64,000 nucleotides of DNA from the NCBI GenBank assembly GCA_902779565.1, contig CACZCD010000001.1:3929-67928 (forward strand), written 5' to 3'. Positions 4,606-49,796 of the stretch are shown here, piece after piece (positions within the stretch are counted from its first letter, which is position 1; each line of letters starts with the position of its first letter). The notes beneath the pieces are model-generated. The model ran no database searches and was not told where the DNA came from. It saw only the letters and a list, made by a program, of their open reading frames with translations. The DNA is from an uncultured bacterium. GTDB lineage: Bacteria; Verrucomicrobiota; Kiritimatiellia; RFP12; UBA1067. Both the position numbers and the translations under genes were made by a program.

Positions 4606-4640
4606 AGTTGGTAGTTGATAGTTGGTGGTTGATTTGTCTC
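4606..4640 (-). repeat. Heptamer tandem repeat forming the 5' leader of the nucleotidase gene (mRNA sense ACCAACU/AUCAACU x4)
   Basis: The plus strand reads AGTTGGT AGTTGAT AGTTGGT GGTTGAT TTGTCTC. This is near-identical in architecture to 25361-25400, upstream of the esterase gene. Confidence 0.8.
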
Positions 4641-4705
4641 ACGCAGAGGCGCAGAGGACGCAGAGAGAAATTTCGGAGTTGTGACTCCGCTCAAAAAATA
4701 ACATG

Positions 4706-4777
4706 GATTCCACCTTTCCACTTTTCCACCTTTCCACCATTCCACCTTTCCACTTTTCCACCTTTCAACCTTTCAAC
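4706..4777. repeat. Nine exact-length 8-bp tandem units NNTTCMAC (minus-strand sense GTKGAANN)
   Basis: gaTTCCAC ctTTCCAC ttTTCCAC ctTTCCAC caTTCCAC ctTTCCAC ttTTCCAC ctTTCAAC ctTTCAAC. The U32 stop codon (4765-4767) lies inside unit 8. Confidence 0.9.
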
Positions 4778-6061: not shown

Positions 6062-7150
6062 TCAGATCTTTCCCAGACCGGCGGCGATGCGCTCCGAGAG
6101 ATCCTTGTCACGAAGCGCGGTGAGAACCGGATCAAGTTCTCCCTCGATGATGCGGTCGAGCGAATAGAGAGTGAGATCCACGCGATGATCGGTCAACCGG
6201 TTCTGCGGGAAGTTATAGGTACGGATGCGCTCGGAGCGGTCGCCCGAACCGCGCAGCGTCAGACGCGACGCGCCCAGCTTCGCCTCTTCCTCGCGCCGCT
6301 TGAAGTCGAGGATGCGCGCCTTGAGGGTGGCCAGACACTTCTCGCGGTTTCGGATCTGCGAGCGTTCATCCTGACACTGCGCCACGAGTCCCGTGGGAAG
6401 ATGCGTCATGCGGACGGCGGACTCCGTCTTGTTTACGTGCTGACCGCCCGCGCCGCCCGCACAGAAGAGGTCGATGCGCAGATCCTTCTCGGGAATCTCC
6501 AGCTCATCCTCCTCGTCCGCCTCCGGGAACACCACCACCGTCGCCGCGCTCGTGTGGATGCGTCCCTGCGCCTCCGTCTCAGGCACGCGCTGGACGCGGT
6601 GTCCGCCGCTCTCGAAACGGAAGAGCCCGTAGGCCCCCTCACCCTCAACGGTGAAGATGACCTCCTTGTAGCCATCAAGAGAAGTCTGGTTTTCGGACAT
6701 CACGCGGATGCGCCAGCCCCTCGCCTCGCAGTAGCGCGAATACATGCGGAACAGGTCGCCCGCGAACAGCGCGGCCTCCTCGCCGCCGGTGCCGGCGCGG
6801 ATCTCGAAGCAGGCGTTGCGCGCCTCGAGCGGATCGGGCGGCAGAAGTCCCGCCAGCACCTCACGCTCGGCATCCGGGATGCCCGACGAAAGCAACTCGA
6901 CCTCCTTCGTCGCCTCGGCCGCCAATTCGGGATCCAAAGAGGCGTCGGACAGCATCGCCTTGGCGCCGTCGATGTCGTCCAACAGCTTGAAGTAGCGCTT
7001 CGCCGCCGCTTCGAGCTTCTTGAGGGCCGTGTGTTCGCGCACCGTCTCGCGGTAGCGCTTCACGTCCGCAATAACGGAAGAATCGCCCATCGCGGCTTCC
7101 ACCGCAGAGAGGCGATCCAACACTTTTCCGATCTGGGCTTTCTCGATCAA
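6062..7150 (-). CDS. prfA: Peptide chain release factor 1
   Basis: GGQHVNKTESAVR (GGQ motif), RVPETEAQGRIHTS (RF1-type tripeptide region) and AGTGGEEAALFAGDLFRMY. The start codon appears to be TTG at 7150, overlapping the rpmE stop (TTGA). Confidence 0.95.
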   Translation of the reverse strand: MIEKAQIGKVLDRLSAVEAAMGDSSVIADVKRYRETVREHTALKKLEAAAKRYFKLLDDIDGAKAMLSDASLDPELAAEATKEVELLSSGIPDAEREVLAGLLPPDPLEARNACFEIRAGTGGEEAALFAGDLFRMYSRYCEARGWRIRVMSENQTSLDGYKEVIFTVEGEGAYGLFRFESGGHRVQRVPETEAQGRIHTSAATVVVFPEADEEDELEIPEKDLRIDLFCAGGAGGQHVNKTESAVRMTHLPTGLVAQCQDERSQIRNREKCLATLKARILDFKRREEEAKLGASRLTLRGSGDRSERIRTYNFPQNRLTDHRVDLTLYSLDRIIEGELDPVLTALRDKDLSERIAAGLGKI

Positions 7151-7359
7151 GCCTTTTTCTGGAATTTCGCGTAGCGCTTCTTGAACGAGTCAACGCGGCC
7201 TTCCGTGTCAACCATCGTCTTCTGCCCCGTGAAGTAGGGGTGGCACGCGGAGCAGGTGTTCACCTGCATCTCCTTCTTGGTGGAACGCGTCTTGATGACA
7301 TTGCCGCACGCGCACGTAATCGTCGCGTCTTCGTAGGTAGGATGGATTCCTTCTTTCAT
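7147..7359 (-). CDS. rpmE: 50S ribosomal protein L31 (Zn-ribbon type)
   Basis: MKEGIHPTYEDATITCACGN...CSACHPYFTGQ. ATG at 7359 with AGAAGAAAG upstream. Confidence 0.95.
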   Translation of the reverse strand: MKEGIHPTYEDATITCACGNVIKTRSTKKEMQVNTCSACHPYFTGQKTMVDTEGRVDSFKKRYAKFQKKA

Positions 7360-7391
7360 CTTTCTTCTCTGCCTTTCAAAAAAGTGTGCGT

Positions 7392-7420
7392 ATGATACCA
7401 TTTTGCCGCCCTCCGCGCAA
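7392..7420 (-). promoter_or_regulatory. Putative rpmE promoter: TTGCGC-N17-TATCAT with a TGG extended -10
   Basis: The minus strand reads TTGCGC ggagggcggcaaaaTGG TATCAT, 32 nt upstream of the ATG. The -35 ends 8 bp from the boundary of repeat array C. Confidence 0.5.
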
Positions 7421-7427
7421 GAGGGTG

Positions 7428-7652
7428 CGCGGGAAAGGCGCTTGTGCTTGTGTTTGTTGCCAGTCCGTGGCCGCGTCCGTTGTAGCCCGTTGCCTGTCCG
7501 TTAGGCGTCCGTATTAGCCCGTGTGAAGTCCGTAATCTGCCTGAAGCCTGTCCATGATATGTCCGTGGGTAGTCCGTGGTGTGTCCGTCTATGGGAGGGC
7601 GAGTGTCCTCGTGAAACGCCTCAAGTCCGTAATGCGTCCTTCTCGTATCCGT
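7428..7652. repeat. Array C: GTCCGT (complement of ACGGAC) hexamers at about an 11-bp period, plus a terminal block that is an inverted copy of 23224-23287
   Basis: Cores start at 7463, 7475, 7485, 7496, 7507, 7517, 7528, 7539, 7550, 7561, 7572, 7583, 7605, 7625, 7636 and 7647, with degenerate positions at 7594 and 7616. Segment 7428-7490 equals the reverse complement of 23224-23287 except for one T indel. Confidence 0.9.
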
Positions 7653-7660
7653 GTGAAGAA

Positions 7661-7697
7661 ATGCGAAAAGGCGGGCGGCCCGAAGACCGCCCGCCGC
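7661..7697 (-). terminator. Rho-independent terminator of the HU-like gene cluster
   Basis: The minus strand reads GGCGGGCGG-tcttcggg-CCGCCCGCC followed by TTTTCGCATTT, about 70 nt downstream of the stop at 7766. Confidence 0.7.
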
Positions 7698-7765
7698 CAC
7701 GGAGGGTGCGCGCGTCCACGAATGCAATCCGCTACGCAATCGCGCGCCTCCGTCTTTCTCCGCCC

Positions 7766-8833
7766 TTATATCGAGACGACAGTCACCGTCACCGGCGAAG
7801 AGGTGTGATCCGCACCGCCGCTGTGGCGCGTCACCGTGACCGAAACCTCGGAATTGTCCAGTACATCGTCGAGTCCGGTGGGCCACTCGGACTTCAAGTA
7901 CACATCGGTCATCTCGTGTACGCTTCCCCAGACCTCCGCACCGTCCTCGCGGGTGAATTTCACCGACAACTCTGAGCCGTCATACCCGAAGTTGCGCCCA
8001 GAGATCATGACTTCCTCTCCCTTGATGAGCTGCCCCGGTATGGCACCCGCAGCCGTAGAGACGATTGAGGTCACCACCGGTGTCAGATCCGGTCCGGGCG
8101 GGATCGCCGCCGCCTTGACCGTGACCTTGTGCAGAGCCGTGACGAGCGGAGCCGTGGGGTCGAGACCGTGCGAGACGAGCCGCACGTAGTATGTCCCCGC
8201 CGATACCGCCGAGGCGAGCGTGCAGATGATCCGCTGGCCGTCCTCGGTGGAGACCACCGTGATGTCTGCGACCTTGGTCAGTCCGTCCGCCGCAACGAGC
8301 GCAAGGGATTCGTCCTCGCCGTCCGGCACCGTGAGATCGATGCCCGCAATGCGGAACTCCTTCAGTCCGTCGATCAGGCGGTAGGTCTCGGACGCGAGAT
8401 CCATGACAGAACTGATCTTCACGTTGCCGTTCACCGCTTCCACCCCGAGGCTTGTCGGTGCTATGCCGGACACCGCATCGCGGATGTCCTGTGAGAGCGT
8501 CGCGCCGATGTAGAGCGTGTTGCGCGGGGCGCGGAACTCGTCGTCCTCGCTGTCGAACGCCCCGCCAATCATCGGATAGAGCGACACCGCGCCCATGTTG
8601 ATGCGTACGACATCGTCCGCGATCTTCTCGGCGGCAAACTCATAGAACGCGTTCAGGAAGTACTGCGCCGTAGCGCGGGTCATGAACGTGCCCCTGTCGA
8701 GCATCCGCTGGAGGATGTTGTCGTAGGCGAGCGAGCCAATCGGAACGGCCACGCCAAGATACGGAGCCTTCGCCGCCGTCGAAGTGCCGTTACGCACGAG
8801 ACGGTAGCCGACTTTCATTGTCTTCGTTGACAT
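7766..8833 (-). CDS. HU-like DNA-binding domain protein with C-terminal Ig-like (DUF4469-type) repeats
   Basis: 355 aa. The N-terminal about 100 aa (KVGYRLVRNG...YLGVAVPIGSLAYDNILQRM...VRINMGAVSLYPMIGGAF) follows the Bacteroidota-type HU/DUF4469 pattern. It is a paralog of the next gene. Confidence 0.7.
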   Translation of the reverse strand: MSTKTMKVGYRLVRNGTSTAAKAPYLGVAVPIGSLAYDNILQRMLDRGTFMTRATAQYFLNAFYEFAAEKIADDVVRINMGAVSLYPMIGGAFDSEDDEFRAPRNTLYIGATLSQDIRDAVSGIAPTSLGVEAVNGNVKISSVMDLASETYRLIDGLKEFRIAGIDLTVPDGEDESLALVAADGLTKVADITVVSTEDGQRIICTLASAVSAGTYYVRLVSHGLDPTAPLVTALHKVTVKAAAIPPGPDLTPVVTSIVSTAAGAIPGQLIKGEEVMISGRNFGYDGSELSVKFTREDGAEVWGSVHEMTDVYLKSEWPTGLDDVLDNSEVSVTVTRHSGGADHTSSPVTVTVVSI

Positions 8834-25346: not shown

Positions 25347-25360
25347 GTTAATCCTTTTTT

Positions 25361-25433
25361 AGTTGATAGTTGATAATTGATGATTGGTGGTCTAGTCTCA
25401 ACCTTTCCACTTTTCCACCTTCCCACTTTTAAC
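25361..25433. repeat. Composite intercistronic repeat: heptamer leader (AGTTGAT x4-5) plus octamer units (NNTTCMAC x5)
   Basis: The plus strand reads AGTTGAT AGTTGAT AATTGAT GATTGGT GGTCTA then GTCTCAAC CTTTCCAC TTTTCCAC CTTCCCAC TTTTAAC. It abuts the AI-2E stop at 25435 and the esterase RBS. Confidence 0.85.
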
Positions 25434-33297: not shown

Positions 33298-33660
33298 CTA
33301 CCAGGAGCGGTAATAGACCGGCGGAGGCGGCGGGGGCGGCGGCGCCACCACAACCGGGGCCGGGGAATAGACCGGGGTGCTATAGACCGGCGTGCTATAG
33401 ACCGGTGTGCTATAAACCGGCGTGCTATAGACTGGCGCAGGCGCCACGACAACTGGCGGACGAACGATGCTGTTCACGATCGCCGCAGTGCCGAGAGCGG
33501 CTCCCGCAATGCCCCATCCGCAATGGTGGTGATGATGATGGTAGCCATGGCCACCATGGAACCTAGGACCGCCATGGAACCCACCATGGAACCCCGGACG
33601 GGCGAACATCACACCTGCCGTTGCCACGACTGCCAGCATTACTATCAGTTTCTTGTTCAT
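33298..33660 (-). CDS. Small secreted His-rich / Pro-rich repeat protein
   Basis: 120 aa. Signal peptide, GFHGGFHGGPRFHGGHGYHHHHHHC, a hydrophobic segment, (PVYST)x5, and a polyproline run. Confidence 0.7.
   Translation of the reverse strand: MNKKLIVMLAVVATAGVMFARPGFHGGFHGGPRFHGGHGYHHHHHHCGWGIAGAALGTAAIVNSIVRPPVVVAPAPVYSTPVYSTPVYSTPVYSTPVYSPAPVVVAPPPPPPPPVYYRSW
33362..33435. repeat. 15-bp tandem repeat (NGTGCTATAGACCGG, 4 full units plus 1 partial) encoding PVYST units
   Basis: Read directly inside the His-rich protein gene. The repeat is in frame (15 bp equals 5 codons). Confidence 0.9.
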
Positions 33661-33792: not shown

Positions 33793-36700
33793 TTAGGGCT
33801 TTACGCGCACGGTTTCAGCGGTTGAGTGTGCCGTGAACTCGGGCGCGTACATGCATTGGATCGTCGCAAGCCCGCCGATAAACACGCCGCGCTGCTGCAC
33901 GCGATACGACGTCTCAAGAACGAACACGCCCTTGTTGAGACAGTCGATGTAGTAGTGCGTGGCCGTATCCTTCGTGGACTGATAATAACCCACGCCATCG
34001 CGCCAGCGGTACGACGACAGCACATCCTCCGGCTCCGCGCACGCAGGCCGCTCGTCAGAGAGATGCACGAACTCGTACGTGCGGTCGCTCGTGATCTCAA
34101 GCCGCGCCACGATCTCGTCGCCCGGCTCAAGCACGCCATCGATCGACGTGAGCCGTGTCCCATCCGCGCCCTTCACCTTCTTGTAGTACTTCTTCTCCAC
34201 CCGCAACTCCTTCGGCTCGTGCGCGCGTACCTTAAGGACATCCTCAAAGTACGTCCAGTGGACGCCGCCCCACGCAACGCCCTTCTCGCCCGCACCCGTA
34301 AACGTGATCTCGCCCATCTCGGGCCTGATCTGCGCCGCGGCGTAGCGGTGCGAATACATCCCCGTGCCCGCCTCGGCGTTCGCCACCGGCACCTTCTCGC
34401 CCGCCAGCGTGACCTCGGCCAGCTTGTCGCCCGCCAGCAGATCCGTCCCGCCGCCCAGAAGGAGCGCATAGATCGCGTCCACCGTCGCGGCGGTCGTCGT
34501 CCAATCCTGCGTCTGCTTCTGCTTCAGGAGCCACACGTTGCAGGCATCTGCGCTCTCCTCGTCGCGCGTCACCTCGCGGAACGCCTCAATGATCAGCGCC
34601 TGCGTCGAGACGGGCGCGGCGAACACGCTGCACGAGAAGAAGGACGACCTCTTCCAGTATAGGCCGAGTTCCTCTGAAAGGACGCCCCGCTCCTTGATCG
34701 ACGCCATGATCTTCCGCGCGAACTTTTCCTCGCCCATGCGCTTCAAGGCGATGGCCGCCAGCGCCTGCGAGCTGAGGCCGAAGTCCGTCCACTCCTCCTT
34801 GAGATGCTTGACGAAGAGCTTTGCCGGCTGCGCATCCTTCGCGGCGGCGACGCCCTTGAACGTATGGAGGTAGAGCCAGCGAATGTCGAAGCCATCCACA
34901 TGGAACTTGATGCCCAGTCTCTTCGCCTCCTTGAGCCGCTCCTTCACATCCTCAGAAACGAACGCGTCAAGTGCTTCCACCGCCTCCGCAAAGAAGTCGG
35001 GATACGTCCTCTGCGCCAGGAAGTTGAGCCGCGCGAACCCCGTCAGGATATAGAGCGAGATGCCGGGCGCGGACGGCCCGCCCGGGAACCACGGCCAGAG
35101 TCCGCCGCCACACCGCGCGAGTCGCAACTTCTCAAGGCACTTTTCCTGCTCACCCGCCAGACGGTCGGCGGCGAAGAGTTCACCAAGCCGCGCGCGGGCT
35201 GCGCTTTCGTGCGCCGCCTCACGGACCCACGGCGTCGCTTCAAGCGCAATCGCCTTGAGGTGTTCATCCGTCTCAAGCGGGCTCTTCAGCGTTTCGCCGC
35301 CCGCCGCCTTCCACGCGTCGAACGTGGCGCGGATGCGCGGATCGGCGTTTGCGATGTACTGTCCCAGCGCGTTCGCATAGTAGCGGCTGAACGTCTGCTC
35401 GCAGCATTCGTGCGGGAACTCCATCAGGTACGGAAGCGACAACACCGCGTACCACGCCGGACGCGACACGGCGCGCACCGTGAGATCCTGATGGCGGACC
35501 GTCTCAGACCCCTTGCTCGCCAGCAGGTTCTCGAACCGAAACGATTTCGTCGCCGCGCCACGCACGTTGAGCTGCACGGCCTCGCGCACCATCACGCGGC
35601 GCGCCAGCACCGGCAGCACGCCCTCTTCGCCGTCCGCGAACGCCGCGCCCTTCGCGCGCGCGACATATTTGAGATAGCCGCACCCATCCGGGATCCGCAA
35701 CGGGAACTCGAACGTCTTCGATTCGTGCGGAACCAGGTTGAAAGGTTGAAAGGTTGAAGCGTTGAAAGGTTGAAGCGTTGACGGGTTGGCATTTTCAGCA
35801 GAACTTTTCAACTCTTCAACCTTCAACTCTACAACTCCCTGCTGCGGCGCGTCCTCGGTGTTCGTCACCTTGACGGCAAAGAAGAAGTTGTCACCTTCGC
35901 GCACGAAACGCGGTGCGTTCGGTTCGCACATGAGCGGCTTCGTCGTCACGATCTCGTTGTTGCGGAAGATGTCGCCGCGAAGCGCGTTGTCATGCGCGAC
36001 CATCAGGAACTTCCAGCCCGTGAGCGCGTCCGGCACCGTGAACGAGAACGACACCTTCCCGTCCGCATCCGTCTCCAGGTTCGGGAAGAAGAACGCCGTC
36101 TCCTTCAGGTTCGTGCGCGGCGGCGCATCCGGTTCCTTCTCGGACTTCGCGGATGGTGCAGCACCACACACCGCCACCGTTTCTTCTTCCAAGACGCACC
36201 TTTCATTCATCACGCCCATCCCGGCCGCGGCGGACTTGCAGACCATGCCGCCCCGTCTTCGCAGTCTGCCATACTCGTACAGCGACCGCCACGAAGGCCA
36301 TCGGAAGTTGGAGAACCACGTGGACTTGCTTGGGAACCGACCGCCGAGATCCATCAGCTCCGTGGTCGTATTCTGGATTGCCGGACTTCCGAGCCAGCGC
36401 GTCCAGGGCGTAAAGTGACTTGAAAAACCGAGCGACACATCATGCCATTTGTACGCATCGAGCGAACGGTCGTACATGAAAGCGAGCACTTCCGCAGGGC
36501 CCGACACCTTGAACGTCCATATTTCCTTGTTGCCGGGATTGAGCTTGCTCGTCAGGTGCTCCGCCGTGATATCCAGATACTTGTTGTCCCACGGCACATT
36601 CACGCAGGTGCTGTCGCAATAGATGCGGTTCTCGCGCACGAAGGTGGTCTCAATCCTCACTTCGCCGCGATGCTCCTCCTGGATCGGCAGCTCGAAAAAC

Positions 36701-41593: not shown

Positions 41594-42328
41594 TCAGGGC
41601 GTAGAAGGCGCGATGTAGCGGTAGCCGACGCCGTGGATGGTTTCGATGCAGTCGGCCGCGCGCCCCAGCTTCCGCCGGACTTTCATGACATACTGGTCAA
41701 CGGTACGGGTGTTTCCGCCAACGCCGCCGCCCCAGAACTCATTGAGGAGCGAGTCCCGCGAAATGACCTCGCCCGGATGTTCCGCGAGCCGCCGCAGCAC
41801 CTGTATCTCACGGAACGACAGCGCCTCTTCACGTCCCTTGGCATCCACAAGCGCGAAACGCTTCACATCCACCCGATACGGTCCAATCTTGAAATCCCCC
41901 GTCGCCGCCAGCGCACGGTCCGGCACGGGCGGCGGCACCGGTGAGACGGCGGCCGGCGCCGTGCCGCGCGTACGCCGGAACACCGCCCGGATCCGGGAGA
42001 CGAGCACGTTGCGGTCGAACGGCTTGGGCAGATAGTCGTCCGAACCGAGATTGAGACCCATCGCAACATCGGCCGGTGCACCTTTGGCCGAAAGGAAGAT
42101 GATCGGAAGCGCCGGATCGTTCTGGCGAATCTGCTTCAAGACCCTGTAGCCGTTCTTCTTCGGCATCATGATGTCGAGCAGCAGCATGTCGGGGCGGCAC
42201 TTCGCGTATTCCGCCAGCGCCTCCTCGCCGTTCGCCGCCAAGCGCACGGTATGCCCTTCCTCGGCCAGAAGGATCGACAGCGTGTTGCGGATGGACGGCG
42301 TGTCATCCGCCACAAGTATGTCAGCCAT
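41594..42328 (-). CDS. OmpR-family response regulator
   Basis: Receiver domain (ILVADD...LLLDIMMPKKNGY...SAKG) plus a C-terminal winged-helix (trans_reg_C). Confidence 0.92.
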   Translation of the reverse strand: MADILVADDTPSIRNTLSILLAEEGHTVRLAANGEEALAEYAKCRPDMLLLDIMMPKKNGYRVLKQIRQNDPALPIIFLSAKGAPADVAMGLNLGSDDYLPKPFDRNVLVSRIRAVFRRTRGTAPAAVSPVPPPVPDRALAATGDFKIGPYRVDVKRFALVDAKGREEALSFREIQVLRRLAEHPGEVISRDSLLNEFWGGGVGGNTRTVDQYVMKVRRKLGRAADCIETIHGVGYRYIAPSTP

Positions 42329-43511
42329 GATTCCCCTCCTCTCCGGACACTTCGCCGCCCGGCAGCGTCACCTTGAAAACACTTCCGCCGCCCGCGCGGT
42401 CCAGCGCCTCCACGGTACCGCCCATCCCGCGCACGAGGCCCGAGACGATCGCAAGCCCGAGACCCAACCCGCGCTGCGGCGCCGTCTCGTCCGTCCCTTG
42501 GTAAAAACGTTCAAAGAGCGCCTCCCGCGGCCCGGGCGGAAGTCCCGGCCCCCGATCCGCCACTTCCACCTCCACCTGCCCTTTCGCACCGGGACGGAAA
42601 GAGACCTCAATCGTCTCATCCCCGGCGTACTTGCAGGCGTTCTCCACAAGATTGATGACGATCTGCTCAACCTTGTCTCGGTCGGCGCAGGCCCTCACGG
42701 GCGATTCGCCCGAAACCGACAGCGCACAGTCGGGATAGCGGCGGCGCATGAGCCCGACCGCCGACGCCACCACCTCGCCGAGTTCAAAGGGCGCACGGGC
42801 GAAGGTGAGCTTTCCGTTGCGCAAACGCACCATCGTCAGAAGCTCATTGATCATGCGCGACATGCGCACCGATTCCCGTCGCACCGTCTCAAGCGCCTCC
42901 GCCTGATGGCGAGCCTCCTTGATGCCGCCTTCCGCCAGAGCGGAGGCGAGCGGCACGATACTCGCGAGCGGCGTGTTGAGTTCGTGCGACACCATGTCGA
43001 GGAAGGTCTCCTTGACCTCAAGGTCTTCACGCGCGCGCCGCGCAGTGCCGACCAGCCGCCAACTATTGGAAAACAGTATGATAAAGATGAGGATTATCAT
43101 GACCGCCCCGAGACCGAACAAATAAAACGTCAGGCGGTCCTGATACACGAAGCCACGCTCGTTGTAGCCGATCACAGAGCCGTCGCCCAACCGCGCCCAG
43201 CCGATGACCGTTCCATTAGTAGAGGGGATCCAGCCATACTTCGCGCGCGGGGAGGCATTCGTGCCGATCGGCGCCAGTCCCTTGTCCCATTGGTAGTCAG
43301 CCTTCCCATCCTTCTCGTAGGCCCTCACGCGCGTCAGTAGGCGGGACTTGAGATTCGATTCGTAATGCTCAAACTGCACCTCGCGCCGCGCCCGCCTCAT
43401 CTCGTCCGTCAACCCGCTCGTGCCGAACACGAGCAGGAGCAGCCCGGCGGCGGTGATGAGAACGGCCGAAAGACCGATGAACAGGAAATATGTGCGAATG
43501 TCACGATCCAT
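42321..43511 (-). CDS. Sensor histidine kinase
   Basis: Two TM segments, H-box MVSHELNTPLASI, and HATPase_c N/G boxes (NLVENACKY, DRGPGLP, GLGLGLAIV). It overlaps the response-regulator start by 8 nt. Confidence 0.92.
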   Translation of the reverse strand: MDRDIRTYFLFIGLSAVLITAAGLLLLVFGTSGLTDEMRRARREVQFEHYESNLKSRLLTRVRAYEKDGKADYQWDKGLAPIGTNASPRAKYGWIPSTNGTVIGWARLGDGSVIGYNERGFVYQDRLTFYLFGLGAVMIILIFIILFSNSWRLVGTARRAREDLEVKETFLDMVSHELNTPLASIVPLASALAEGGIKEARHQAEALETVRRESVRMSRMINELLTMVRLRNGKLTFARAPFELGEVVASAVGLMRRRYPDCALSVSGESPVRACADRDKVEQIVINLVENACKYAGDETIEVSFRPGAKGQVEVEVADRGPGLPPGPREALFERFYQGTDETAPQRGLGLGLAIVSGLVRGMGGTVEALDRAGGGSVFKVTLPGGEVSGEEGNHG

Positions 43512-43523
43512 GGCATCGCCCCA

Positions 43524-45440
43524 TCACAACGCGTCTGTCATGAATGTATGCGCCACCGTCCAAGGCGCGCTCTTGATCCGTTTCATGCGCATCAAAAGCG
43601 AAAGGCGGTGGCGTTCAAGCTCCGCATCGCCCCGTGCCGGCAGTTCGCCGAGACGGCGTCGGATCGCATCGCCCCATAGCCGCCGCAGAAAATCCTCAAG
43701 AATGCGCGCTGGGTCCAACTCGGAAAGCGATGCGCGCTCCCGCGACAGGAACACGCCCTCCAAAAGCGCACCATCCGCCGCGGAAAGCGTCCCGCGGAGT
43801 TCCGCCATCGCCTGCTCGTTCCCGCGCGTCTCCTGCACATAGGCGTGAACGAACCCGCACGTCAACGCATGCTGGAAAATCGTGTCGGGCGCATAGGATT
43901 CCAGCATCTCCGTCAGCTGCCCATCCGGTCCGTTTCCGAACAGAAACTCCATGAGTGCCATCTCTGTCCGAGGCGGCGGATTGTTCTCCGGAGCCGCAGC
44001 GTCTTCCGAGGGTTGAGAGTTGGGAGTTGAGGGTTGAGGGCTTGCCGCGCCGAAGCCTTCGGCGGAGGCGGGTTGCGTACTTCCTCTTCCCTCTTCCCTC
44101 TTCCCTCTTCCCTCTTCCCTCTTCCCTTTCTCTAGATCCTCCTCAAGGGCGGCGACCGGTATCTTCAGAAGTGTGGAAGCCTCCTGCAGCAAACTGGCGC
44201 GCATGACCGCGCTCGAACTGCACCTGACCAACGCCAAGACAGCGCGCGCCGCGCGGGAGATCGCATCGTAGGAGTCAGGTGTCTGCTCCATCGCGCGGGC
44301 GATGCGTACTTGAAAGGCGACCAGCGACTCAGCCGAATCAAGGCAGGCCTGAAACGCCGCCGGACCTTTCGTGCGAAGCAGAGAATCTGGGTCTTCGCCC
44401 GGCGGAAGACTTGCCACGCGCACCAACAATCCGGCGGCCAGCATCTCGCCGCCCGTGCGAATCGCCGCCTTCTGTCCAGCGGCATCGGCGTCAAAGACCA
44501 GCACGGCGGCATCGGCGACCTTCTTCAGGATCTGGACATGCTCCTTCGTGAAGGCCGTCCCCTGCGACGCGATCGCACGGGAGAATCCCGCCGCATGGCA
44601 GCGGATCACATCGATCTGCCCTTCGCAGACGATGGCCTCGCGAACGGGCTTGGCGTTGGCGATCTTCCCCGCCGCAAGATCGAACGCATAGAGAACATCC
44701 GACTTCCGGAAGATGAGCGTCTCGGGCGAATTGACGTACTTGCCGCCGCGCATCTTCGTCTTATCCGTCTCAAGCGTCCGTCCCGAGAACGCGATCACGC
44801 GTCCAGACCGGTCACGGATCGAGAACATGACGCGTCCGGCGAACGGCGAGTACCAGCGTCCGCCCGGATACTTCGGCGGACGCAGCACGCCGGCCGCCTC
44901 AAGCTCTTCGGTGGTGAAATGATGCTTCTCCGCCCATTTGAGCATCGCCTCGGCCTGCTGCGGCGCGTAGCCGATCTGGAACTGCTCCGCGATCTCGTCC
45001 GGGATGTCGCGCGACGCGAGATAGTTGCGCGCACGCGCCGCCTCAGCGGCCGTCTTGAGGCAACGCCGGTAGAACGCCGCCAACTCGGCGTGGAGCACAA
45101 GTTGGCGCTTGCGCGCGGCCGCTTGCGGATCGCTATTCGTCTCCTCGATGGTGATGTTCGCCGCCGCCGCCAGCTTCTTCGCCGCCTCCACGAAGCCCAG
45201 CCCCTCGTACTTCATCACGAACTTGATCACGTCGCCGGACTCGCCGCAACCGAAGCAGTGGTAGAATCCCTTCGCCGGCTGGATGTTGAAACTCGGCGTC
45301 TTTTCATGATGAAACGGGCAGCAGGCCTTGTACGACCCACCTGCCCGTTTCACTTGGATCCCGTAGCTGGCGATCAAATCTGCAAGGTCCGTACGGGCCT
45401 TGATCTCTTCGATCGTCTGCTCCGAAATGCCGAAGGCCAT
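43524..45440 (-). CDS. dnaG: DNA primase
   Basis: Zn ribbon CPFHHEKTPSFNIQPAKGFYHCFGCGESGD, a Toprim domain (EGQIDV...VFDADAAG), and a C-terminal helicase-interaction region. Confidence 0.95.
   Translation of the reverse strand: MAFGISEQTIEEIKARTDLADLIASYGIQVKRAGGSYKACCPFHHEKTPSFNIQPAKGFYHCFGCGESGDVIKFVMKYEGLGFVEAAKKLAAAANITIEETNSDPQAAARKRQLVLHAELAAFYRRCLKTAAEAARARNYLASRDIPDEIAEQFQIGYAPQQAEAMLKWAEKHHFTTEELEAAGVLRPPKYPGGRWYSPFAGRVMFSIRDRSGRVIAFSGRTLETDKTKMRGGKYVNSPETLIFRKSDVLYAFDLAAGKIANAKPVREAIVCEGQIDVIRCHAAGFSRAIASQGTAFTKEHVQILKKVADAAVLVFDADAAGQKAAIRTGGEMLAAGLLVRVASLPPGEDPDSLLRTKGPAAFQACLDSAESLVAFQVRIARAMEQTPDSYDAISRAARAVLALVRCSSSAVMRASLLQEASTLLKIPVAALEEDLEKGKREEGRGKREEGRGSTQPASAEGFGAASPQPSTPNSQPSEDAAAPENNPPPRTEMALMEFLFGNGPDGQLTEMLESYAPDTIFQHALTCGFVHAYVQETRGNEQAMAELRGTLSAADGALLEGVFLSRERASLSELDPARILEDFLRRLWGDAIRRRLGELPARGDAELERHRLSLLMRMKRIKSAPWTVAHTFMTDAL
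44012..44126. repeat. Heptamer tandem repeats in the dnaG linker: (GTTGRGR)x4, palindrome GCCGAAG-C-CTTCGGC, (TCTTCCC)x5
   Basis: Read directly. It encodes EKGKREEGRGKREEGRGSTQPASAEGFGAASPQPSTPNSQPSE in the primase frame. Confidence 0.9.

Positions 45441-45458: not shown

Positions 45459-49796
<4,338 letters not shown>

What the first reader, a model, noticed from the sequence alone, without database searches (positions are those of the whole stretch)
44012..44126. Heptamer tandem repeats encoded in the DnaG linker
The sequence reads GTTGAGA GTTGGGA GTTGAGG GTTGAGG, then the palindrome GCCGAAG-C-CTTCGGC, then TCTTCCC x5 with partial units at both ends. A 7-bp unit only preserves the reading frame in multiples of three units. 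Here the run reads through as KGKREEGRGKREEGRG…SPQPSTPNSQPS, between the Toprim core and the C-terminal helicase-binding domain. Slippage by one or two units would frameshift an essential gene. The tract is therefore either constrained in copy number or a potential contingency or phase-variation site, which would be surprising for a primase. The GTTGRGG units are related to the octamer family seen elsewhere in the window.
Basis: partly seen in the sequence, partly recalled or inferred. Interest (0 to 1): 0.5.

Follow-up and report, generated by a model that had tools for sequence, protein, structure and literature searches.

The report
Hypervariable heptamer-repeat linker inside DnaG primase
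The flexible tether between the two working parts of this gut bacterium's DNA primase is encoded by two slippage-prone 7-base repeat arrays that differ between strains, but there is no solid evidence that they switch this essential gene on and off.

Summary

Copy number is not fixed. In relatives with at least 75% protein identity, the variable part of the linker is 25-66 residues long and 7-residue periodic. Unit types and counts differ (5 to about 20 units). Length differences are not multiples of 21 nt. Strains with 99.7-100% identical flanks carry unrelated arrays. A sister clade keeps a stable, non-repetitive 56-residue linker.

About 40 of 44 alleles are in frame (P about 2e-15 against neutrality). 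Four contigs are out of frame. Two of them are exactly what a k=55 assembly collapse would produce, one is ambiguous, and one is unexplained.

The tract belongs to a lineage-wide family of 7-8-nt arrays. This includes an alpha-2-macroglobulin gene that is out of frame by one unit in two relatives. The family resembles the G-rich heptamer repeats of Xanthomonas and Nostoc.

Best reading: an ordinary simple-sequence repeat (SSR) sitting in a length-tolerant linker. A true phase switch of dnaG remains unproven and unlikely.

The parts
43524..45440 (-). dnaG ORF, 638 aa: Zn-ribbon, primase core/Toprim, repeat-encoded linker, helicase-binding domain
   Evidence: ORF list. Pfam PF01807, PF08275 and PF13155. 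TIGR01391 412.5 bits over residues 5-422. PDB primase cores such as 2au3_A at E 6e-57.
44083..44127 (-). Array A: (GGGAAGA) x6.4 on the coding strand. Encodes GKREEGRGKREEGRG. It has six G3 tracts and fits the quadruplex motif G3N4.
   Evidence: TRF, 100% matches, score 90. Stop-free in all three frames. ViennaRNA with the G-quadruplex option gives -8.9 kcal/mol for the array alone, against 0 without it.
44048..44064 (.). Central palindrome CGCCGAAG-C-CTTCGGCG. Encodes part of ...SAEGFGA...
   Evidence: no other close copy in the window. Kept in alleles L023-L029, L031 and L058. Absent in L022, L030 and L047. Half-deleted in L046.
44008..44040 (-). Array B: CCTCAAC-like x4.7 on the coding strand (GTTGAGG on the + strand). 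Encodes PQPSTPNSQPS. Its G-rich strand is the opposite strand, so A and B form a convergent pair.
   Evidence: TRF, 84% matches. Stop-free on the coding strand only.
44013..44111 (-). Codons for the disordered tether (residues 444-476)
   Evidence: AlphaFold2 on alignment A1: pLDDT below 50 and no secondary structure over 444-476. It is flanked by confident helix 429-445 and helices 491-633.
43527..43970 (-). C-terminal helicase-binding domain (residues about 491-638)
35735..35837 (-). Sister module E3: octamer arrays (GAGTTGAA / CTTCAACC) in frame inside the 1968-aa alpha-2-macroglobulin ORF
   Evidence: Relatives L060 and L061 carry (ACTCCTCC)3 and (ACTCCTCC)5 at the same site, and both are out of frame.
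4606..4777 (-). Sister module E1 between co-directional genes. On the gene strand it reads (AAGGTGGA)n from the upstream stop codon, then a hairpin, then (ATCAACYACCAACT)n, then RBS and ATG.
25360..25430 (-). Sister module E2 between co-directional genes. It reads (GTGGAAA-like)n directly after the upstream stop, then (ATCAAYT)n directly before RBS and ATG.

Best explanation
The tract is a compound simple-sequence repeat (SSR). It consists of a G-rich heptamer array, a short palindrome, and a second heptamer array whose G-rich strand is the opposite one. It encodes, in frame, the intrinsically disordered tether between the catalytic core and the helicase-binding domain of DnaG in one clade of gut and rumen Kiritimatiellia.

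Every unit used is free of stop codons in all three frames of the coding strand. An array of n units is therefore simply read as a 7-residue periodic low-complexity peptide, such as GKREEGR or PQPSTLN.

The tether tolerates a wide range of lengths and sequences. Replication slippage (gain or loss of units), mutation and homogenisation of units, deletions between short repeats, and recombination between strains all generate many alleles. Selection removes only those that put the helicase-binding domain out of frame.

Shown here: the anatomy, the disorder, the domain identities, the polymorphism, the excess of in-frame alleles, and the presence of the same kind of array at other loci.

Inferred: slippage as the mechanism, selective neutrality of linker length, and recombination as the source of unrelated alleles on identical backgrounds.
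For: 1. Anatomy and coding.

2. Disordered tether between folded domains.

3. Hypervariability is confined to the repeat-bearing clade. Relatives at 75% identity or more have a 7-residue periodicity of 0.24-0.57 and variable parts of 25-66 aa. About 25 representatives of the sister clade share a conserved, non-periodic 56-aa linker. Orthologues at 72% identity or less have non-repetitive DNA there.

4. The DNA alleles differ by whole units and by unit type:
- (GGGAAGA)5 in L024 and L025, 6 in the window, and 7 full copies (TRF 9.7) in L058.
- (GGGGAAY)5-6 in L022 and L030, and about 20 in L047.
- Array B is lost in L046.

5. L030 and L047 have flanks 99.7-100% identical to the window but a different linker.

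6. The frame is under selection: about 40 of 44 alleles are in frame, binomial P 2.3e-15 against one third.

7. The same window allele occurs in several assemblies (P0001 on 3 contigs, plus P0002, P0003, L066 and L068). L024 and L025 are identical in two samples. The tract is therefore not wildly unstable.

8. The same class of 7-8-nt arrays occurs at three other sites in the window. The A2M site arose in place from homologous loop sequence.

9. Published precedent exists: G-rich heptamer SSRs with convergent pairs, length variation between close relatives, and a preference for sites between aligned ORFs (PMC4692102).
Against: Out-of-frame contigs do exist:
- L022 is out of frame by 1 nt. It is a megahit k141 contig with arrays too short for k-mer collapse.
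- L047 is out of frame by 2.
- L026 and L027 are also out of frame.
If real, slippage does break the gene at appreciable frequency.

Completely different linkers on identical backgrounds are more than simple slippage explains. They could point to diversifying selection or to ectopic conversion between arrays.

All four modules in the window have the same order relative to transcription: the purine- or G-rich array first, then the CAAC-type array. A purely neutral process does not predict this.

No read-level data were available.
Confidence: 0.7

Rival explanations
1. A true contingency (phase-variable) locus. Gain or loss of heptamer units reversibly switches DnaG between a full-length form and a split form (primase core plus a separately made or absent helicase-binding domain). 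This would create subpopulations with altered or arrested replication.
For: - The unit length is not a multiple of 3, and unit number is polymorphic.
- Four contigs are out of frame by whole units, and the downstream domain ORF is intact in all of them.
- L022 is not explained by k-mer collapse.
- A second gene (A2M) in relatives is out of frame by plus or minus one octamer unit, and L061 is not explained by collapse.
- In split contigs, gene callers find a 145-aa ORF starting at MALMEF.
Against: - L026 and L027 are exactly the k=55 shortest-path products of any longer array. L047 has a 48-nt internal repeat, so its unit count is uncertain.
- About 40 of 44 alleles are in frame.
- The ATG of the 145-aa ORF is not conserved (TETALMEF in many relatives). 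It has only a weak GGA/GAG motif upstream and no promoter-like site.
- Stand-alone CTD ORFs mostly come from contigs that start inside the array, or from scaffolds with N gaps and probable chimeric joins.
- From established knowledge of E. coli DnaG, the C-terminal domain is needed in cis to recruit primase to DnaB. An OFF state should therefore be lethal rather than adaptive.
Confidence: 0.07
2. A functional nucleic-acid structure in the mRNA or DNA: either a G-quadruplex in array A, or the long imperfect hairpin formed when A pairs with B. It would tune DnaG translation, for example by pausing ribosomes between domains or keeping primase levels low, or it would affect replication or transcription locally. 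The repeats would then be maintained for that reason.
For: - Array A has six G3 tracts on the coding strand, and a G4 is predicted for the array alone.
- The whole tract folds as one hairpin at -53.2 kcal/mol, z = -2.2. The A2M module gives z = -2.8.
- All alleles read at the DNA level keep four or more G3-4 tracts in array A.
- The published G-rich heptamers form G4s in vitro and prefer four units (PMC4692102).
- The G-rich strand has the sequence of the lagging-strand template, judging from GC skew.
Against: - Complementarity between A and B is not kept across alleles. GGGGAAY or GGAACAG arrays are paired with CTCAAC or AACTCRA arrays. L046 has no array B, and L022 and L030 have no palindrome.
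- The intergenic sister modules fold no better than shuffles (z +0.3 and +0.4).
- The sister clade does without any repeats.
- z = -2.2 is modest.
- No experiment was possible.
Confidence: 0.13
3. A mobile palindromic element (MITE- or REP-like, comparable to Rickettsia palindromic elements) that inserted in frame into the dnaG linker and at other sites.
For: - A modular array-palindrome-array architecture is seen at four sites, two of them inside ORFs.
- Contigs L063 and L065 join CAAC-type arrays from other loci to the dnaG linker.
Against: - Units differ from site to site, and the palindrome has no other close copy in the window.
- Orthologues without repeats have linkers of similar length (171-261 nt between anchors), so there is no net insertion.
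- At the A2M site, the ends of the array region are homologous to the non-repetitive loop of an orthologue (VSLSIDEL...PAQPFSLAPHE), which indicates in-place origin.
- L063 and L065 are N-gapped scaffolds, so the joins are probably chimeric.
Confidence: 0.04
4. The repeat tract in the window is itself an assembly artefact.
For: These arrays clearly disturb assemblies. Contigs end inside them (L059, L066, L068), and unit counts can collapse.
Against: - The window's longest exact period-7 run is 45 nt. That is shorter than the usual final k-mers and than the reads.
- The identical protein allele is on 3 contigs from two sources, plus two near-identical cluster representatives.
- L066 and L068 carry the same sequence downstream of their start points.
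- The ORF is intact.
Confidence: 0.02

Closest known systems
G-rich quadruplex-forming heptamer SSRs: GGGAATC in Xanthomonas and GGGGA(C/T)T in Nostoc (Rehm et al. 2015, PMC4692102)
   Same: - The heptamer unit has a G3-4 tract.
- Arrays run from 2 to more than 20 units.
- Length and sequence vary widely between close relatives.
- Arrays often occur as convergent pairs, with the G-rich array on opposite strands, and can form stem-loops.
[quoted passage not shown] The window's modules E1 and E2 do exactly this.
- No link to a particular gene class.
   Different: - A different phylum (Kiritimatiellota) and different units (GGGAAGA, GGGGAAY). 8-nt units also occur.
- The partner array is a CAAC-type unit, not the exact reverse complement.
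- This copy lies on the coding strand inside an essential ORF, a position the paper reports as under-represented.
- G4 formation was only predicted here, not measured.
TAACTGA heptamer direct repeats of Beggiatoaceae, cyanobacteria and Bacteroidetes (MacGregor 2015, PMC4679880)
   Same: - Heptamer arrays sit within a few nucleotides upstream of start codons, sometimes overlapping the upstream stop. The (ATCAACT)n arrays of E1 and E2 do the same.
- Occasional in-ORF copies lie outside functional domains and are read as 7-residue repeats.
- The paper discusses the idea that such arrays could split a protein into two.
   Different: - The forward TAACTGA unit carries stops in all frames, so it cannot be read through. 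The units here are stop-free on the coding strand.
- The sequence is different.
- No evidence was obtained here for a binding factor.
Classical SSR contingency loci of host-adapted bacteria, such as Haemophilus influenzae and Neisseria (PMC2651432; PMC7157529)
   Same: A tandem repeat whose unit is not a multiple of three lies inside an ORF. Unit-number polymorphism can change the reading frame.
   Different: - Those loci sit near the 5' end of dispensable surface, LPS or restriction-modification genes, and both ON and OFF states are documented.
- Here the gene is essential and the tract is an interdomain linker.
- In-frame alleles dominate, and the OFF alleles are mostly attributable to assembly.
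Rickettsia palindromic elements (in-frame insertions in ORFs; recalled from my own knowledge, not checked here)
   Same: A palindromic repeat module is tolerated in frame within protein-coding genes, in surface-exposed or linker regions.
   Different: RPEs are conserved 100-150-bp mobile sequences that add length. Here there is no conserved element sequence, no net insertion, and the arrays arose in place.
DnaG interdomain linker of model bacteria (structures 2au3, 1dd9, 2r6a, 4ehs)
   Same: The same three-module primase, with a flexible connection between the RNA-polymerase domain and the helicase-binding domain.
   Different: The linker here is long (about 45-90 residues including conserved ends), repeat-encoded and strain-variable. 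In the sister clade it is a conserved 56-residue sequence.

Membership tests
Bacterial DnaG primase | N-terminal CHC2 zinc-ribbon | tested here: met
   PF01807, E 6.3e-37, residues 6-101. PDB 1d0q_A, E 3e-27.
Bacterial DnaG primase | RNA-polymerase core with Toprim fold, scoring above the equivalog cutoff | tested here: met
   TIGR01391 412.5 bits against a cutoff of 283.6. PF08275 and PF13155. 2au3_A, E 6e-57.
Bacterial DnaG primase | C-terminal helicase-binding domain (DnaB-N-like helical fold) | tested here: met
SSR contingency / phase-variable locus | Tandem repeat with a unit not divisible by 3, in an ORF or promoter | tested here: met
   Perfect period-7 array of 6.4 copies inside the ORF.
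SSR contingency / phase-variable locus | Unit-number polymorphism among closely related strains | tested here: met
   5, 6, at least 8, and about 20 units on backgrounds 95-100% identical in the flanks.
SSR contingency / phase-variable locus | Both in-frame (ON) and out-of-frame (OFF) alleles reliably present in populations | tested here: inconclusive
   There are 4 out-of-frame contigs. L026 and L027 are reproduced by k=55 collapse. L047 is ambiguous and L022 is unexplained. About 40 of 44 alleles are in frame. No read-level data.
SSR contingency / phase-variable locus | The OFF state is viable (dispensable or conditionally useful gene) | tested here: not met
   The gene is the DnaG equivalog, and its helicase-binding domain is downstream of the tract. 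Essentiality itself rests on established knowledge, not on a test here. The strong excess of in-frame alleles agrees with it.
SSR contingency / phase-variable locus | Reversible switching at high rate | not testable with these tools
   This needs clonal lineages or spanning reads.
G-rich quadruplex-forming heptamer SSRs (Xanthomonas/Nostoc type) | Heptamer unit with a G3-4 tract, and 4 or more tracts per array | tested here: met
   (GGGAAGA)6 in the window. All DNA alleles have 4 or more G3-4 tracts.
G-rich quadruplex-forming heptamer SSRs (Xanthomonas/Nostoc type) | The array folds into a G-quadruplex | tested here: inconclusive
   ViennaRNA with G4 energies gives -8.9 kcal/mol for the array alone. 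In context, the A:B hairpin (-53.2) wins. A biophysical test was not possible.
G-rich quadruplex-forming heptamer SSRs (Xanthomonas/Nostoc type) | Convergent pairs of arrays with the G-rich strand on opposite strands | tested here: met
   Array A is G-rich on the minus strand and array B is G-rich (GTTGAGG) on the plus strand, 42 nt apart. The arrangement is the same in E1-E3.
G-rich quadruplex-forming heptamer SSRs (Xanthomonas/Nostoc type) | Many copies dispersed over the genome, mostly between co-directional ORFs | tested here: inconclusive
   Only 64 kb were seen. There are 4 modules: 2 intergenic between co-directional genes and 2 inside ORFs. Further arrays occur in related loci. A whole-genome census was not possible.
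Mobile palindromic element (MITE/REP/RPE-like) | The same element sequence at multiple loci | tested here: not met
   Units differ between the four modules. The palindrome has no other close copy in the window.
Mobile palindromic element (MITE/REP/RPE-like) | Net insertion relative to orthologues that lack it | tested here: not met
   Repeat-free orthologues have linkers of 171-261 nt against 207 nt here. The ends of the A2M array are homologous to the orthologous loop.

The most novel reading that the evidence does not exclude
The dnaG linker is a genuinely hypermutable switch or diversity hotspot. Heptamer slippage, perhaps promoted by G-quadruplex formation on the lagging-strand template, together with conversion between the many similar arrays in the genome, produces subpopulations in which primase is uncoupled from its helicase-binding domain. 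The cell would tolerate this, or rescue it through reinitiation at MALMEF or G4-induced ribosomal frameshifting. This would amount to bet-hedging at the level of chromosome replication. L022, the unrelated linkers on identical backgrounds, and the recurrent out-of-frame A2M alleles are the observations that keep this reading open.
Probability: 0.06. Interest if true: 0.75.

Novelty: new member of a known kind. Interest (0 to 1): 0.35.

Why it matters
This extends the poorly understood class of bacterial heptamer and octamer SSRs, known from Xanthomonas, cyanobacteria and Beggiatoaceae, to gut and rumen Kiritimatiellia.

It also gives a clean natural experiment. The same essential protein has a stable linker in one clade and a repeat-driven, strain-specific linker in the sister clade. 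This shows how much length and sequence freedom the DnaG tether has.

Practically, these arrays break contigs, collapse unit counts and create false frameshifts and chimeras in short-read metagenome assemblies. Split dnaG or A2M genes in such MAGs should not be taken at face value.

The linker could serve as a strain-typing marker for this lineage.

Tried and rejected
- Rfam gathering search of the whole window gave 0 hits. The tRNA scan gave 0. No sigma-70-like promoter or terminator lies on the coding strand around the tract. There is therefore no known RNA or internal transcription signal.
- A conserved RNA structure was rejected. z is only -2.2, the sister intergenic modules score +0.3 and +0.4, and arm complementarity is not kept between alleles.
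- Sequence-only searches for the C-terminal domain failed (Pfam, PDB profile). A fold search was needed.
- I looked up the exact protein downstream of E2 to test intergenic array polymorphism. It returned only the same strain, 2760 of 2760 nt identical, so it was uninformative.
- I tried to count split alleles through stand-alone CTD ORFs. The count is confounded: contigs start inside array A (L066, L068), and others are N-gapped scaffolds joined through CAAC-type arrays of other loci (L063, L065). The apparent deletions in the downstream histidine kinase are scaffold gaps.
- I first read L026 and L027 as direct proof of +2-unit frameshifts. I withdrew this after the de Bruijn simulation.
- The mobile-element reading was rejected.
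- Literature searches for SSRs in dnaG or in Kiritimatiellae found nothing relevant.
Full report
**What is in the sequence**

The window carries, at 44008-44127, two period-7 tandem arrays separated by a short palindrome.
- TRF reports 44008-44040 (4.7 copies, 84% matches) and 44083-44127 (6.4 copies, 100%).
- Direct reading confirms GTTGAGA/GTTGGGA/GTTGAGG/GTTGAGG at 44012-44039 and CGCCGAAG-C-CTTCGGCG at 44048-44064.
- The tract lies inside ORF 43524..45440 on the minus strand. On that strand it reads (GGGAAGA)6.4, the palindrome, then four CCTCAAC-like units. It is translated as EKGKREEGRGKREEGRGSTQPASAEGFGAASPQPSTPNSQPS.
- Periodic runs of the cores involved are absent from 50 Markov shuffles of the window, against 6 observed.

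**The gene and the position of the tract**

The ORF is DnaG. TIGR01391 scores 412.5 bits (cutoff 283.6) over residues 5-422, and the Zn-ribbon, DNAG_N and Toprim Pfam domains are found. Solved primase cores match at E down to 6e-57.

In the full-length model, residues 444-476 have pLDDT below 50 and no secondary structure. They sit between confident helices 429-445 and 491-633.

**Relatives**

The organism is an uncultured gut or rumen Kiritimatiellia.

In the protein alignment, the segments ALEEDLEKG and SEDAAAPENNPPP are conserved, and what lies between them is not.
- All relatives at 75% identity or more (about 40 cluster representatives) have a 7-residue periodic variable part of 25-66 residues, with periodicity 0.24-0.57. 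Examples are GKREEGR, GTGNREQ, NSKLETR and PKPETRN.
- The next clade, at 66-68% identity with about 25 representatives, shares one conserved non-periodic 56-residue linker (periodicity 0.13 or less).
- Orthologues at 72% identity or less have no tandem repeat in the DNA of the linker.
The hypervariability therefore goes with the repeats.

**DNA alleles**

Lengths are measured between the same two anchors.

| Allele | Array A | Palindrome | Array B | Length (nt) | Frame |
|---|---|---|---|---|---|
| Window | (GGGAAGA)6+GGAAG | present | 4 units | 207 | in |
| L024 = L025 (two samples) | (GGGAAGA)5+GGGAAG | present | long CGCAAC/AACTCRR array | 234 | in |
| L023 = L028 | (GGGGAAY)3 then (GGGAAGA)5-6 | present | 7.7 units | 243 | in |
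| L029 | (GGGGAAY)2-3 then (GGGAAGA)4 | present | CGCAAC/AACTCRR array | 255 | in |
| L031 | (GGGGAAY)3 then (GGGAAGA)2-3 | present | CGCAAC/AACTCRR-type array | 234 | in |
| L046 | interrupted array A | half | none | 177 | in |
| L030 | (GGGGAAY)6 | none | 8 units | 189 | in |
| L058 (77% protein identity) | (GGGAAGA)7 full copies (TRF 9.7) | present | 1-2 units | not measured (anchors differ) | in |

- The in-frame lengths do not differ by multiples of 21.
- The window and L024 differ in array A by one unit plus the loss of one G, a net +6 nt.
- L030 and L047 have flanks 99.7-100% identical to the window over 626 and 486 nt. They share only the last ~24 nt of array B with it. That points to recombination or very fast turnover, not gradual drift.
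- The window allele recurs unchanged in several assemblies.

**Out-of-frame contigs**

| Contig | Change | Offset |
|---|---|---|
| L026 | window allele +2 units | 2 |
| L027 | L024 allele +2 units | 2 |
| L047 | L030 allele with about 20 units | 2 |
| L022 | (GGGGAAY)5, no palindrome, (YCTCAAC)7 | 1 |

In all four, the helicase-binding domain ORF is intact. Gene callers report a truncated primase plus a 145-aa ORF starting at MALMEF.

- I tested whether assembly could produce these. In a k=55 de Bruijn graph (55 is the usual largest SPAdes k), any true array that is 2 or more units longer than the window or L024 allele yields a shortest-path contig with exactly +2 units. The exact runs are then 59 and 56 nt, which are the values in L026 and L027. 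These two contigs prove only that the array is longer in those samples.
- L047 has a 48-nt internal repeat at a distance of 35 nt, so its count is uncertain.
- L022 (megahit k141) has no period-7 repeat longer than 20 nt. Its only longer repeat has period 21, which cannot change the frame. It remains unexplained.
- Stand-alone CTD ORFs in the database are largely contigs that begin inside array A, or N-gapped scaffolds joined through similar arrays of other loci.
- Counting everything, about 40 of 44 alleles are in frame (binomial P 2.3e-15 against one third). The representatives are related, so this is only indicative.

**A family, not a one-off**

The window has three more modules of the same build.
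- E1 (4606-4777) and E2 (25360-25430) fill the space between co-directional genes. On the gene strand, a purine- or G-rich array starts at the upstream stop codon, and an (ATCAACT)-type array ends at the ribosome-binding site of the next gene.
- E3 (35735-35837) lies in frame in a 1968-aa alpha-2-macroglobulin ORF.
  - An orthologue at 74% identity has a non-repetitive loop of the same length with homologous ends, so the arrays arose in place.
  - Two related MAG contigs carry (ACTCCTCC)3 and (ACTCCTCC)5 at that site. They are out of frame by 1 and 2; four units would be in frame. The five-unit contig is not explained by collapse at the SPAdes k values.
- Arrays of period 7-8 are the commonest class among the loci held.
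- All four modules point the same way relative to transcription, and the minus strand is the leading strand by GC skew.

**Mechanism**

All heptamers used are stop-free in the three coding-strand frames, while array B has stops on the other strand. This is the condition for being read through.

Array A fits the G3N4 quadruplex motif, and a G4 is predicted for it alone. In context, the model prefers a long imperfect A:B hairpin (-53.2 kcal/mol, z -2.2). The A:B complementarity is not preserved between alleles, and the intergenic modules fold no better than shuffles. I therefore treat structure as a possible promoter of slippage rather than a conserved function.

The best-supported account is an SSR that has colonised a length-tolerant linker. 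It evolves by slippage, unit turnover, small deletions and recombination, with selection acting only on the frame.

**Comparison with what is known**

- The closest described systems are the G-rich heptamer SSRs of Xanthomonas (GGGAATC) and Nostoc (GGGGA(C/T)T). [quoted passage not shown]
- The TAACTGA arrays of Beggiatoaceae sit just upstream of start codons and occasionally within ORFs, outside functional domains (PMC4679880).
- Classical contingency loci (PMC2651432) share the frame arithmetic but not the gene class or the documented ON/OFF states.
- I found no report of such repeats in dnaG or in Kiritimatiellae.

**Verdict**

Polymorphism is present. Copy-number constraint and the 21-bp rule do not hold. 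A phase switch is unproven.
- This is a new member of a known kind of bacterial SSR, in an unusual place.
- Interest is moderate. The main open point is whether the L022-type frameshifts are real, which only spanning reads can settle.

Noticed in passing
window 35735-35837; L060 4380-4500; L061 4380-4500: The alpha-2-macroglobulin gene carries an in-frame octamer-array module in the window. In two related MAG contigs, the same site has (ACTCCTCC)3 and (ACTCCTCC)5, and the gene is called as two ORFs that are out of frame by 1 and 2. Four units would restore the frame. This is a more plausible candidate for real SSR phase variation than dnaG.
   Followed up: partly
window 4606-4777 and 25360-25430: Two intergenic modules exactly fill the gap between co-directional genes. 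A (GGTGGAAA)-type array begins at or overlaps the upstream stop codon. An (ATCAACT)-type array ends a few nucleotides before the RBS of a signal-peptide protein gene. This resembles the published TAACTGA and GGGAATC arrays. Function is unknown.
   Followed up: partly
window 23040-23260 and 7456-7640: ACGGAC, and on the other strand GTCCGT, is repeated about every 11 nt (one helical turn) more than 12 times. It lies in two large gene-poor gaps (22584-23294 and 6135-7766) and looks like a phased binding-site array. There are no Rfam or tRNA hits there.
   Followed up: no
window 4641-4690: Inside module E1 there are three ACGCAGAGG units followed by a perfect hairpin, CGGAGT-tgtg-ACTCCG.
   Followed up: no
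window 33367-33437 and 33319-33344: A 15-nt tandem repeat (ATAGACCGGCGTGCT x4.7, 89% matches) and a (CGG)8.7 run lie just downstream of the A2M gene, within a small 120-aa ORF.
   Followed up: no
window 22850-22920: A C/A-rich run of CCTCCAATCMMC-like units lies next to a palindrome (tgttcatgg...ctgaacatcg), at the start of the 22584-23294 non-coding gap.
   Followed up: no
L059 1700-1754; L063 1200-1310; L065 640-760; L066 and L068 starts: Short-read contigs of this lineage end inside these arrays, or are joined through them to unrelated loci. L063 and L065 are N-gapped scaffolds. Split or truncated genes at such arrays in MAGs are often assembly products.
   Followed up: yes
window 45459-49796 and 41594-43511: dnaG sits 18 nt downstream of rpoC and 12 nt upstream of a histidine kinase and response regulator pair, all on the same strand. 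This is not the rpsU-dnaG-rpoD arrangement of model bacteria.
   Followed up: no
L061 2999-3034: A further octamer array (AATCAAAC x4.4) lies inside the A2M ORF of a related contig, at a different site from E3.
   Followed up: no
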